64,000 bases of DNA, from contig OZ260666.1 of NCBI GenBank assembly GCA_965285935.1, positions 35,712,001 through 35,776,000 on the forward strand, written 5' to 3'. Of the stretch, positions 29,913 through 34,281 are shown in pieces (the first letter of the stretch is position 1; each line of letters begins with the position of its first letter). Below the pieces are notes generated by a model. The model was not told where the DNA came from and ran no database searches. It saw nothing but the letters and a program-made list of their open reading frames with translations. The position numbers and the translations under genes were made by a program. Origin of the DNA: Ophelia neglecta. Its lineage: Eukaryota.

Positions 29913-32900
29913 TTATGAGTTGCATGACGCACAGCATTGCGTATTGAACGAAGGGTGTCGACAACGGTATTTTCCGTAGAAGCCAATGTATCCTTTACAT
30001 GTGTACAGTCGTGAATTCCTCTCGATAACAGTATTCCGGTCACCATATGGGCATTCTGAAAATAAAGATAAAAAAATTCGCATTAAATTTTGTCCGATTC
30101 GTTATGAAATTTGTGTATCCTGCGTTCTAGTCTCTTGCTTTAAAGTTCTTGCTGGTTCTCAATCGGTTACCAGAGGAATGGAGATGCTAGCCTTCTATTG
30201 TTCACTATTATCGAAATATCGTGCCTTTATTACGCATCTTTTTCTAGCGAGACTTTCTGAAGAGCCTACGCAGATGGATTCATTCAGAAAACAATTTTAA
30301 GGGAATACTAAAAAACAAAAGACGTTCTTTTGCGTTCTAGTTTTAGGCAAAATATTTATCTAACAAAGAGATACCTATTCAATACATATTTAACTCGTTT
30401 TAAAGATTTGTTTCAACATTATAAGTTTGTGTAACTATTGTAGGCAGCAAATAAAGTTTTCATTGAACTAGGATTAAGACGTCAGTTTTCGCATAGATCA
30501 GTATTAACAAAACGGTTGTTATTTTTAAAACCCCTTTTGAGTTTTTGGGTGCTTAGTGTCAGCGCAAATCTCGTGTGATTAACATTGATTACTAAAAAAC
30601 CTAATGGCGGAGGCCGGATGGGGAGAGGGGTGTCACTAAAAGCAGACGAAATGAGTTTAACCAGCACTGAAAAGGCCTAAGGGGACACCGTTTTGATTAC
30701 ACATGATAGTACAACTATATGCGTTCCCTATATATTATCATATATAAATTGTGTAGCCCATTTCAAAATATATGGTTAGCTCATTTTTTATAATTGTTTG
30801 AGTATGATCTAAAATTAATTTACATAAAAACATAGCAAATAAATTAATTTACATCAAAGCATGATCAATTACAGATTGGTTTTCAATACGAAAACTTTGC
30901 GATATTTTGATATTTTCAATCTGCTTAACGTGAGCCTATAGCAGGTGATGGTATACCTTGCTTGCCGGTAAAATAGACCTGGCACGTGGCACAACATAGG
31001 GCTCGATTACGCTCGGTGTAGCAGTAATGAGGCTGGAGATGTCGGTGACACTGCTCCGGGATTATATCCACACAGAAACCATCTCGTCCGAACACTGAAA
31101 CATAACAAACATAGGTTAAACCCCTGTCGTTTTAGGATAACTCTAGCATAAAAAAACAAATAGAACACCATATAAATTATATTGTACAACCTAGTTAACG
31201 GTACGCCAATAACAGATACTTTTAATACGCAAAAAAGAAGATGTGCAGTTTGGCGTTTAAACACTTCTTCATTAACATACACTATTAAAAACAAGGTAAA
31301 CAGTTTATCAGTGCTTTAATTGCCAACAAATCTCTGCCCTGTAACTAACTTGAACATTTAATTCACTTCCAATAGAATAAACACAGTAGCGATGCAGGGG
31401 ATGACACGCGTGAAGTTATTAAATTATGTGCGCCTAATAGAACAAAATTTTACGGGAAGTCGGATGGGCGAAAGAATTTGACATTGAGACATTGACAAGG
31501 AGTCATCGCTGACCTCCAGAGCCCAGAAAAGTGGTCGAGGCAGCGTGAACACCCACGCAAGGTATGAAGTTAACCTGTATTCACATAGGAGAAGGCTTCT
31601 GATTCGCTGGCACATTCATTCAGTGGGGGGGGGGGGGGGAGGGGGGGCGTAGGGCGGAGATTGCAGTCAAAGTCAATGCCTCACAAACAGCCAGCTTGAT
31701 TATAAACATCAGGAGAAAGCAGAAGAGGGACTATAATTTGGGAACATTGTGTGCGTCATTCATAAACAATTGTTTAGAACAAAACAATGAAATTGAATTA
31801 TCTCAAAATATATCTTCATTAGGCTATGCTATGCGCCCACACGACAAGCCGACCAGCAGATTCTAACCACACAAATAGCCATTCATTATATACAAAAGCG
31901 AGGATATAAATGATATAAGGAGACGATTTACATGCAATATAACAAGACTCGACATTCCACTTCAAGAGAACCGCCCTTGTCGGAGTATTACTTCACAAGT
32001 AAAGTCTAATTTATATCTGAAACGTTCATTTTTTGTACTTATTCTAACATATTCAGTAGTAACCGGCACCTCAGTTATTTGGTGTCAATTTCGTTTAAAT
32101 TTCAATTAGTCGATCAACATGTTTAATACCAATTTCCAATCAAGGCGAAAAGGCACGTTACTCACTAATCAATACTATTTAAATTATCGATAAGAAGATA
32201 TCGATAAGGCTACTCTACGCCAAGAGTTAGTGTTTTGATAAACGGACGACATTTCGGAGCTCTTCATTGGCTATTGACTAGCCGCTACATGTATGCGGTC
32301 GCGGACGTTTAGGGTATTTCAGAGTGACAGGAAGCAAAACATCGTCAACAGGGCTTGGGTTAGGGCTGAGGGTTAATTTCAGTATTAGGGGAAGTGTTAG
32401 GGACAAGTTTTAAATGTCTAGTGTTCCGTTCTAATTTCAGGATTTACCTCCGCAAGGCTCCGCGCTTCCGCTTTAATCGAAAGCCCCTCATTGATTCTGA
32501 TTCCTGCAGTGGCATAAGTAACTGCATGAGCAGTTACAAGTACCGGTGGTACTTATAGTTTTCACAATTTGGCACTCAGTGCTTCTATGAATACTTTCCG
32601 TCCTATGTATACGCTCCGATATGCTGGGTATTATGCTATTGGATCTATCATAGCCTGTTGTTTTGTTAGATTTGTTAACCATGGCAACGGCTGGCTAATC
32701 TTGTTGTTTTTGTCACTGTAATCTATATAGTGCAGGCGCCAGAGAGGAGATGTTGTACGGCGAAAACGGCTCTCTAATTTGTTATAATCTATAATCCTGG
32801 GGATGGAAGGGGGGGGGGGGGGCTTCCATTATAATAGGGCGGGGACGCTCCGCGCAGCATTGAAAATGGTTGTCATAGTGATAGAGAAGTCCTCAAAAAA

Positions 32901-34281
32901 AGTACCCATTTGATAGAATTTTTTTTTTTAAATGTACGCAATTGATAGATTTTTTTCAAAAAAGGGTCCACATTTGATATATTTTTTTGAAAAATTTGTC
33001 AGAAAAGCTGGGAATTAGACCTTTTTGATAGACAAACAAATGTGATGACCCATTTGATAGTATTTTTAAGAAAACAAAATACCCTTGACCGGCGAGCATG
33101 GTGGTAATCATAGATGACCATAATCTTTATTTTTAAAATTGTGTTAACTACATGAAGACAATCATGAAGACAATATTCAAACTATCGATGACAATTCTAT
33201 AAGAAGTTTTATTGCTACAACACATAAAGGTACAAATTCGAAGAGCCCGAAATGTGCCATCGCCTATATTTCGCTGCAAGTTTTTCCAATAAAAATGCCA
33301 ACTTATTGCCATGCATGTAAGTAATTTTATGTGAGGGGATATTTCCTTTGATGTTTCAGTCAGTATTTGTTTATGTGTAATACACTAATACGCCACTGAC
33401 CATTATGCCTTGGGGCCTGACGTAATCATCGTCTCGTGGCCCCTTGAGGCTGCAGTATGGGAGAGCGCCGGCCAGACGACATCAAGAAGTCACATGGCAC
33501 AGTTATCCTTCCCACCCACCCAGTGGTCATAACAATAAAAATTGTTATTTGTGAGGGGCGAGACCGCTCGCCTTATCGGGTTATTATAGGGCGCTCCCTA
33601 TATTGATCGTCTTCTTGTACTGTCAATATCATTAAGTTCACGCTTTAATAAAAACTTTTCAATCCAAACACGCTCATTGTGTTACCACTACTAGATCCTC
33701 GGTCTGGACAAAACCTTTTTATAAAGCATAAATACACCATTCTAGTTAAGCCCTTTGTTCTCAAAATTCCGTATGGTTTACTTAAAACGACCGGTAAACA
33801 TAAAACAGACCAGCAATTTATTCACCAAAAGCATAGAAAGGTTCCCATGCCTCTCATTTAGAAAAAATCATTTTACATTGATACTACATCCATAACCTTC
33901 TAAGACTATAACTATTATTGATCCTATTTCATCTTCTTTCATCATTAACTAAAGGAATATAACACATTGAAGAGTATTTTCTGTGATCCATTTCCCTTTT
34001 GCGTAATGTCTACGTTTAGTAACCCACATAGATGCCATTCTGCATCATTCAATATAGTATGTCAAATGAAAGAATGTAAACAAATATTGACCAGGATAGT
34101 TGTCTTCGAAAGAGAGCGGCAGTGGTCAACACAAGTGAATAATCAATCCGCGCTAAATCACATATTAAAAAATCAAAATGGAAGGTAAACTAACGTTTCA
34201 CTCACCGGCCGCCTGCGATGGCCAAGTGCCTAACAAAAAGAGACAAAAAAGTCCCACAATGTTTCCTAAGTGACAGTTCAT
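29913..34281 (-). CDS. Small secreted cysteine-rich protein with two PLAC-like 6-Cys modules (118 aa, 3 exons)
   Basis: Exons 34281-34206, 31094-30957, 30055-29913 joined by phase-1 GT-AG introns (357 nt): MNCHLGNIVGLFCLFLLGTWPSQAA-VFGRDGFCVDIIPEQCHRHLQPHYCYTERNRALCCATCQVYFTGKQ-ECPYGDRNTVIERNSRLYTCKGYIGFYGKYRCRHPSFNTQCCASCNS*; gccATG context; hydrophobic signal peptide. Confidence 0.85.
32810..33100 (+). repeat. Non-autonomous repeat-like element with internal (acccatttgatag) sub-repeats after a poly-G run
   Basis: The motif ttgata(g) recurs 5-6 times at 30-60-bp spacing (acccatttgatag, caattgatag, cacatttgata, ctttttgatag, acccatttgatag). Confidence 0.45.

What the first reader, a model, noticed from the sequence alone, without database searches (positions are those of the whole stretch)
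29913..34281. Hidden secreted 12-Cys mini-protein (two PLAC-like modules) missed by ORF calling
Seen: a TATA box, a signal-peptide exon, and two phase-1 exons each encoding C-x(7-17)-C-x(8-11)-C-x8-CC-x2-C. The mature peptide is ~93 aa and Arg/His/Tyr-rich. Established: the C...C...C...CCxxC spacing matches PLAC domains (ADAMTS/papilin C-termini), which are normally parts of large proteins. Small basic disulfide-rich secreted peptides are often toxins, antimicrobials or signalling ligands. Inference: a stand-alone di-PLAC-like peptide, possibly undescribed.
Basis: partly seen in the sequence, partly recalled or inferred. Interest (0 to 1): 0.7.

Follow-up and report, generated by a model that had tools for sequence, protein, structure and literature searches.

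The report
Conserved secreted two-module PLAC-like miniprotein
This three-exon animal gene encodes a small, likely secreted protein of two six-cysteine modules that is closely conserved in two deep-sea tubeworms, and it likely works as a docking protein outside cells rather than as a venom toxin.

Summary
The gene is real. Three minus-strand exons (34281-34206, 31094-30957, 30055-29913) give a 118-residue precursor: a hydrophobic leader and two six-cysteine modules. The Cys motif occurs 2 times in the window against 0.04 expected. Orthologues of the same size and layout exist as hypothetical proteins in the tubeworms Ridgeia piscesae and Lamellibrachia satsuma: 55-57% identity, identical Cys spacing, no gaps over 84 columns, reciprocal best hit in this genome. 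So it is stand-alone, not the 3' end of a larger protein. The modules are PLAC-like but fall below Pfam's PLAC cut-off. They fit best an unnamed lophotrochozoan C-x-YGD repeat that forms long tails on M12B (ADAMTS-like) proteases and also builds protease-free secreted proteins of 2-8 modules. Only one close copy here, strong conservation, presence in gutless non-predatory worms and no conserved lysine argue against a ShK-type toxin. Best reading: a small two-headed extracellular binder of a conserved host partner; the partner is untested. No RNA run was available and no fold could be assigned. Not found described in the papers searched. New variant of a known kind, moderate interest.

The parts
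34346..34351 (-). TATA box candidate, 70 nt upstream of the ATG
   Evidence: sequence; function inferred
34206..34281 (-). Coding exon 1: predicted signal peptide, 25 codons + 1 nt, strong GTGAGT donor, phase 1
   Evidence: best of 71 first-exon candidates; orthologues also start with a hydrophobic leader
30957..31094 (-). Exon 2 (phase 1-1, 138 nt): module A plus aromatic-x-Thr-Gly linker
   Evidence: 54% identity (20/37) to the Ridgeia protein; donor lies 8 residues after the last Cys, the modal place in the family
30982..31074 (-). Module A, six Cys, spacing 7-8-8-0-2 (PLAC-type spacing)
29913..30055 (-). Exon 3 (phase-1 acceptor, 143 nt to TAA): module B and stop
   Evidence: 59% identity (26/44) to the Ridgeia protein
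29922..30053 (-). Module B, six Cys, spacing 17-11-8-0-2, long C-x-YGD type, net charge +5
   Evidence: AF2 (pLDDT 63, low) suggests a beta-hairpin then two helices
29609..29614 (-). First AATAAA downstream of the stop (299 nt), polyadenylation signal candidate
   Evidence: use inferred

Best explanation
The three exons encode a 118-residue precursor with two six-cysteine modules, conserved in two tubeworms, that is predicted to be secreted and likely works as a small two-headed, non-enzymatic binding protein for a conserved extracellular partner of the animal's own (matrix, cuticle or tube, mucus, or a cell-surface protein). Shown: gene anatomy, 1:1 orthologues, and module kinship with the repeat tails of M12B proteases and with protease-free repeat proteins. 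Inferred: signal cleavage leaves a 93-94-residue chain with six disulfides; the conserved Arg and aromatic residues form the binding faces; the gene arose by duplication and shuffling of phase-1 module exons behind a signal exon. Untested: the partner, the tissue and any activity.
For: Orthologues KAK2181938.1 (Ridgeia, 113 aa) and KAI0231748.1 (Lamellibrachia, 117 aa). From first to last Cys there are no gaps over 84 columns; 45 of 83 comparable columns are invariant in all three, 33 of them non-Cys; window vs tubeworms 46-47 of 83, tubeworm vs tubeworm 67 of 84. The Ridgeia protein's two best hits in this genome are exons 3 and 2 (E 1.4e-12, 2.4e-6); the next of 5 matches is E 0.037. Two genes lying 5 and 15 gene models from the L. 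satsuma orthologue (named by me RPS10 and GRASP55/65) map to the same chromosome C9 here. Module family: 79 distinct modules in 22 fetched loci, 50 of 79 with C-x-[YFW]-G-[DN]; 37 of those 50 start two bases after a YAG acceptor as exon 3 does, background 3%. Window modules score 22-26 bits on leave-one-gene-out family HMMs (held-out members: median 32, 10th percentile 22.8, minimum 16.3), and 0 of 500 Cys-fixed shuffles reach their score. The arrays follow M12B/ADAMTS_CR_2 exons and alternate with Thr-rich stalks, a layout typical of extracellular binding arrays (my knowledge). Protease-free relatives exist: Elysia proteins with 4 and 6 modules, L. satsuma g0421 (4 modules) and g0422 (2 modules) beside the orthologue. 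PLAC Cys mutants of C. elegans DYF-4 and MIG-6L are mislocalised or depleted from the basement membrane (PMC8221789, PMC12549975; passages read).
Against: No transcript or protein evidence for this genome. No partner shown. The DYF-4 and MIG-6L results may reflect folding or secretion defects rather than binding (the MIG-6L authors infer a role in secretion), so a docking role for PLAC-like modules is itself inferred. The protein is more basic (net +4 to +6) than the array modules (median -2 per module), so it may bind something different, such as microbial surfaces. Only two orthologues were found, both vestimentiferan. Modules of another family gene (C5:30.47 Mb vs Lsat_s001.g1129) are about as conserved by eye (20 of 31 in one module), so conservation is not exceptional within this family.
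Confidence: 0.5

Rival explanations
1. An antimicrobial or symbiont-regulating peptide: a cationic, disulfide-stabilised secreted peptide that binds bacterial surfaces in skin, mucus or coelomic fluid.
For: Net charge +4 to +6 with 9-12 Arg in all three species, unlike the mostly acidic array modules; small size; both orthologue hosts carry bacterial symbionts (PMC10291997, abstract and introduction passages).
Against: No antimicrobial Pfam family matched at E <= 10 or E <= 1; only one close copy in this genome; gap-free 55-57% conservation is less usual for antimicrobial peptides (my knowledge).
Confidence: 0.2
2. An endogenous signalling ligand or regulator that binds a receptor, a channel or one of the module-tailed ADAMTS-like proteases.
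For: Single copy, invariant surface residues and invariant linker length suggest one specific partner; PLAC-bearing DYF-4 binds the membrane protein DAF-6 (PMC8221789, passages).
Against: No receptor candidate. The DEG/ENaC gene beside it here is not a neighbour in L. satsuma. No conserved dibasic processing site between the modules.
Confidence: 0.15
3. A ShK-type ion-channel toxin used in defence or predation.
For: Small and disulfide-rich; ESM Atlas feature searches rank ShK clusters near the top for exon 3 (0.86) and for the Ridgeia protein (0.85-0.88), which the tool rates as leads only.
Against: No Pfam ShK hit. The end spacing is CC-x2-C, not ShK's C-x3-C-x2-C (recalled). The L. satsuma mature chain has 0 Lys and Ridgeia 1, so the Lys-Tyr pore-blocking dyad (recalled) is not conserved. 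Vestimentiferans lack a gut (PMC10291997) and take no prey. No close paralogue expansion.
Confidence: 0.08
4. The two Cys exons are the 3' end of a longer protein or a dead fragment of a protease tail, and exon 1 is a chance match.
For: No RNA data for this genome; donor 2 is weak; exon 1 shows little sequence identity to the orthologue leaders.
Against: Two species, three gene models (two NCBI records and the Uchida model g0423, which adds an upstream extension without a start Met) give the same leader + two-module protein. The upstream DEG/ENaC gene ends at its own stop near 38405 (read by eye; Pfam ASC hits). No M12B motif was seen in the window's longer ORFs. The second allele has no indel in the exons and one synonymous and one last-residue change in exon 3.
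Confidence: 0.04

Closest known systems
PLAC domain (Pfam PF08686; ADAMTS proteases, papilin/MIG-6L, C. elegans DYF-4)
   Same: Six Cys ending in CC-x2-C; module A has the 8/8 inner spacing of 10 of 10 PLAC-type modules here; sub-threshold Pfam hits; extracellular.
   Different: Below the Pfam cut-off (at most 17.4 vs 26.4 bits); not among the 22 PLAC matches in this genome; module B has a 17-residue first loop and C-x-YGD, found in 0 of 10 PLAC-type modules; two modules make up the whole protein instead of capping a large one.
Lophotrochozoan C-x-YGD six-Cys repeat arrays (no family name found): tails of M12B proteases such as Elysia chlorotica RUS90511.1, and repeat-only proteins Elysia marginata GFR62527.1 and GFS10394.1 (UniRef labels 'PLAC domain-containing' and 'ShKT domain-containing')
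   Same: Same motif, same phase-1 exon borders, same linker; module B's best non-orthologous matches are these Elysia modules.
   Different: Only two modules, no protease, no mucin stalk; basic rather than acidic; conserved 1:1.
Ridgeia piscesae NP493_376g04042 (KAK2181938.1) and Lamellibrachia satsuma LSAT2_017887 (KAI0231748.1; Lsat_s005.g0423)
   Same: Orthologues: same size, layout, Cys spacing and linker length.
   Different: Both are uncharacterised. In L. satsuma the gene lies in a three-gene cluster of module proteins; here no other module was found in the 64-kb window.
ShK/ShKT domain (Pfam PF01549)
   Same: Small six-Cys secreted module; nearest named clusters in the ESM Atlas feature search.
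   Different: No Pfam hit, different terminal Cys spacing (recalled), no conserved Lys.

Membership tests
PLAC (PF08686) | Six-cysteine region of about 40 residues ending in CC-x2-C | tested here: met
   Both modules; definition from PMC8221789 passage
PLAC (PF08686) | Inner spacing C2-x8-C3-x8-CC, as in 10 of 10 PLAC-type modules of this genome | tested here: inconclusive
   Met by module A (7,8,8), not met by module B (17,11,8)
PLAC (PF08686) | Score over Pfam's gathering cut-off, 26.4 bits | tested here: not met
   Exon 3: 17.2 bits; exon 2: no PLAC hit listed; orthologues 17.4 and 16.5 bits; window absent from 22 genome matches
PLAC (PF08686) | Sits at or near the C-terminus of a larger extracellular protein | tested here: not met
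   Two modules are the whole mature protein in all three species
PLAC (PF08686) | Same fold and disulfide pattern | tested here: inconclusive
   AF2 models weak (pLDDT 63 and 51); Atlas structure rows with PLAC had TM 0.29-0.33, under the tool's bar
PLAC (PROSITE profile) | PROSITE PLAC profile match | not testable with these tools
   PROSITE is not held
ShK/ShKT (PF01549) | Pfam ShK match | tested here: not met
   None at E <= 10 or E <= 1
ShK/ShKT (PF01549) | Terminal spacing C-x3-C-x2-C (recalled) | tested here: not met
   Both modules end CC-x2-C
ShK-type K+ channel blockers | Conserved Lys-Tyr dyad (recalled) | tested here: not met
   0 Lys in the L. satsuma mature chain, 1 in Ridgeia; no Lys among the invariant columns
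C-x-YGD repeat of lophotrochozoan M12B tails (unnamed) | C-x-[YFW]-G-[DN] start of the module | tested here: met
   Module B has it; 50 of 79 family modules have it; module A is of the other type
C-x-YGD repeat of lophotrochozoan M12B tails (unnamed) | Phase-1 exon borders: acceptor two bases before Cys1, donor about 8 residues after Cys6 | tested here: met
   Exon 3 acceptor as in 37 of 50; exon 2 donor at 8 residues as in 28 of 79 (35 of 79 had no donor found by the rule)
C-x-YGD repeat of lophotrochozoan M12B tails (unnamed) | Profile score within the range of held-out members | tested here: met
   22-26 bits vs held-out range 16.3-48.1, median 32, so at the low end; PLAC-type modules score 11-20 on the full profile
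Antimicrobial peptides | Kills or inhibits microbes | not testable with these tools
   Only net charge could be computed (+4 to +6)

The most novel reading that the evidence does not exclude
The founding member of an undescribed family of protease-free PLAC-like miniproteins in annelids that act as diffusible decoys or regulators for the module-tailed ADAMTS-like proteases, or as specific ligands of a cell-surface protein. It would be the smallest natural system in which to learn what PLAC-type modules bind.
Probability: 0.15. Interest if true: 0.7.

Novelty: new variant of a known kind. Interest (0 to 1): 0.42.

Why it matters
PLAC domains cap many ADAMTS proteases and are still called poorly characterised (PMC12549975, passage). 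A natural protein made of only two PLAC-like modules, conserved across species, lets binding partner and structure be studied without the rest of a large protease. It also points to a large lophotrochozoan repeat family that Pfam does not capture (79 modules in the loci fetched here), and offers a compact disulfide scaffold. It is not a new mechanism so far.

Tried and rejected
RNA evidence: no RNA holder listed; the three runs laid behave as genomic contigs of one sample and show no joint at the exon borders among the joints shown; neither counts for or against expression. Exon 3 alone found no longer homologue in the word-indexed search. PDB sequence search with the 12-module profile: 0 hits at E <= 10. 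Fold searches with the 46-residue model: best Z 2.3, no Foldseek hit at E <= 0.001; the model is weak, so this says nothing on the fold; the 117-residue model (pLDDT 51) was not searched. A 52-module tree on 43 columns had unsettled bootstrap and 23 of 49 branches open; only the module-A orthologue clade (96/92) is usable. Functional link to the neighbouring DEG/ENaC gene: rejected, because it is not a neighbour of the L. satsuma orthologue. P0013 has no module and is a chance hit. Earlier scan notes: nothing near, by sequence or by words; 5 genome-wide notes did not bear on this. Literature: 10 searches, 9 on this protein or family and 1 on the neighbour; no listing described a stand-alone PLAC-like protein or this repeat; two searches were swamped by unrelated papers, and most subscription papers are not held. 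The expression tables of PMC10291997 (xlsx, too large) and the supplement of PMC10414810 could not be read and may hold tissue data for the orthologues. No complex prediction was run: no partner was specific enough.
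Full report
Observation. On the minus strand, exon 1 runs 34281-34206 (76 nt, hydrophobic core, GTGAGT donor), exon 2 31094-30957 (138 nt, phase 1 on both sides) and exon 3 30055-29913 (143 nt to TAA), 118 codons in all, with TATAAA 70 nt upstream and AATAAA 299 nt downstream. Each Cys exon holds one six-Cys module, spaced (7,8,8,0,2) and (17,11,8,0,2). The motif occurs 2 times in the window; 200 Markov resamples gave a mean of 0.04 and never 2. Exon 1 is the best of 71 first-exon candidates between the upstream gene and exon 2, and no extra in-phase exon passed my filters in either intron. 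Donor 2 scores weakly on a generic matrix. No RNA run was listed, so splicing is not shown for this genome.

The gene is stand-alone and conserved. A profile of 12 modules found 3 proteins at E <= 0.01 among 15 candidates, one being a 113-aa hypothetical protein of Ridgeia piscesae (KAK2181938.1). A second search built on it added a 117-aa protein of Lamellibrachia satsuma (KAI0231748.1; 2 hits of 3 candidates). Both have a hydrophobic leader and the two modules only. Exon 2 matches the Ridgeia protein at 20 of 37 and exon 3 at 26 of 44. From first to last Cys the three align without a gap over 84 columns, including the 9-residue linker that the proposed splice gives; 45 of 83 columns are invariant, 33 of them not Cys. 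Searched back, the Ridgeia protein's best two of 5 matches are these exons (E 1.4e-12 and 2.4e-6; next 0.037). The gene models in the supplement of PMC10291997 hold the same protein as Lsat_s005.g0423 (that model has an extra upstream stretch without a start Met). Two genes near it on that scaffold, which I name RPS10 and GRASP55/65 from their sequence (compared by eye), lie on the same chromosome C9 here, 12.5 and 31.6 Mb away. C9 is about 10% of the genome, so this is modest support for orthology, with local order not kept. The organism is therefore likely an annelid; I did not try to identify it.

What the modules are. Pfam gives only a sub-threshold PLAC hit: 17.2 bits for exon 3 against a cut-off of 26.4, 17.4 and 16.5 for the orthologues. 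A PLAC search of the genome found 22 matches, 8 over the cut-off, none in the window. A weak hit of exon 2 led to a gene at C9:43.38 Mb with six related modules and a Thr/Ser-rich stalk; a search with two of those gave 32 matches at 9 loci, 8 of them on C9. In 22 fetched 10-kb loci I found 79 distinct modules, some from recent duplicates and one with a false first Cys. Seven of the nine loci show M12B protease exons upstream of the array: Pfam gave ADAMTS_CR_2 or Reprolysin hits, mostly under the cut-off, in 5 of 8 exons from the 4 loci submitted, and the other 3 loci are by motif or by eye. At two loci (C9:43.38 Mb, C5:30.47 Mb) no protease motif was seen in the DNA fetched. Fifty of 79 modules begin C-x-[YFW]-G-[DN], against 0 of 10 PLAC-type modules. 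The window's splice borders are the family's: 37 of those 50 start two bases after a YAG acceptor like exon 3 (background 3%), and the commonest donor position, 8 residues after the last Cys (28 of 79), is that of exon 2. On leave-one-gene-out profiles the window modules score 22-26 bits, at the low end of true members (median 32, minimum 16.3); on a PLAC profile from this genome they score 15 and 19, where held-out PLAC-type modules give 16-40; both exceed Cys-fixed shuffles (0 of 500 for the family profile, 2 and 4 of 500 for PLAC). Against this neat picture, module A has the 8-residue C2-C3 gap of 10 of 10 PLAC-type modules and of 0 of 79 family modules. So the two families are likely related, module A sits between them, and module B is of the long C-x-YGD type.

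Wider family. A full HMMER scan with exon 3 gave 7 proteins at E <= 0.001: the Ridgeia orthologue, one chance hit, and five proteins with 4-8 long modules. Three are from Elysia: two repeat-only proteins labelled 'PLAC' and 'ShKT domain-containing' and one M12B protease with five modules. In L. satsuma the orthologue is flanked by g0422 (leader + 2 modules) and g0421 (leader + 4 modules, the last much like module B), and g1129 (leader + 4 modules + stalk) resembles the C5 gene here (by eye). That supplement is cut at 4.0 million characters, so these are lower bounds. Protease-free secreted proteins of this module are thus a small family, and the two-module form is its shortest member seen.

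How it likely works. Shown: a leader and 12 Cys in two modules, strict conservation of spacing, linker and many Arg, Tyr, His and Gly residues, and a net charge of +4 to +6 where array modules have a median of -2. No catalytic motif is present. Inferred: secretion, six disulfides, and two binding faces held at a fixed distance. In the long relatives the modules come in arrays broken by mucin-like stalks behind an extracellular protease, which points to docking on a repeated extracellular ligand (my inference). Cys mutants of PLAC in DYF-4 and MIG-6L are mislocalised or depleted from their sites (PMC8221789, PMC12549975; passages only), though this may be a folding effect. I commit at 0.5 to a two-headed binder of a conserved host extracellular partner. 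Antimicrobial or symbiont control (0.2) is kept alive by the charge; a specific ligand or regulator gets 0.15. A ShK-type toxin (0.08) is supported only by Atlas leads of 0.85-0.88 and opposed by Cys spacing, the absence of Lys in the L. satsuma chain, single copy, and hosts without a gut. Structure did not help: AF2 gave pLDDT 63 for exon 3 and 51 for the L. satsuma protein, and fold searches were empty. The Atlas holds a better model of the Ridgeia protein (pLDDT 0.80, pTM 0.62) with no neighbour at TM 0.5.

Novelty. The protein is in public databases as hypothetical, and related repeat proteins carry automatic PLAC or ShKT labels. Nine literature searches on the protein or family listed no paper describing a stand-alone PLAC-like miniprotein or this repeat; coverage is limited to open papers. 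Papers seen: PMC4349717 (passages), PMC8221789 (passages), PMC12549975 (passages), PMC10291997 (passages, sections 3.2 and 3.3, one part of and searches in supplement file 3), PMC10414810 (search listing only); the rest as listings. Verdict: a real, conserved, uncharacterised secreted protein; new variant of a known kind; interest 0.42.

Noticed in passing
window 38405-63677, minus strand: A DEG/ENaC-like channel gene (N-terminal HG motif near 63500 by eye; Pfam ASC hits at 42427-42711 and 38764-38925) with PAN, MAM, kringle and LDLa exons lying between its ends, and a 494-aa non-Pfam exon at 40439-41923. If one transcript, these modules sit in the channel's extracellular loop. One search (ENaC + kringle + MAM + annelid) found 0 papers; the gene model was not built.
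   Followed up: partly
L029 and L026 (G000:C9:43.358-43.378 Mb), plus strand: A second gene with kringle, VWA and an ENaC-like exon plus a long insert lies tail to tail with the six-module mucin-stalk gene. The pairing with a module gene resembles the window but may be chance.
   Followed up: partly
L060-L077 (G000:C9 at 21.7, 23.8, 40.3, 51.3, 67.2, 67.7, 73.1 Mb): At least seven M12B/ADAMTS_CR_2 protease genes with tails of about 7 to 17 six-Cys modules and no TSP repeats seen; two pairs are inverted duplicates (21.7/23.8 Mb nearly identical; 67.2/67.7 Mb).
   Followed up: partly
L065 (G000:C5:30.47 Mb): A four-module gene without protease motif whose modules match L. satsuma Lsat_s001.g1129 closely by eye: a second conserved protease-free member.
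   Followed up: partly
L011 (G000:C7:6.524 Mb) 1384-1596, plus strand: Two PLAC-type modules in tandem in one exon before a stop, after a Thr/Trp-rich stretch; the rest of the gene was not examined.
   Followed up: no
window 8165-22215, plus strand: Guanylate/adenylate cyclase gene (Pfam hits at 8165-8560 and 10961-11230) with a 539-aa low-complexity last exon; a 245-aa ORF at 16074-16811 on the same strand has no Pfam match and may be an exon or a separate gene.
   Followed up: no
window 32255-32474, 32900-33120 and 31604-31820 (intron 1): High-copy dispersed repeats, up to about 1000 times background contig depth.
   Followed up: no
window 24795-25289, plus strand: Broken ORFs that look by eye like remnants of a LINE-type reverse transcriptase; no Pfam hit for the piece tested.
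   Followed up: no
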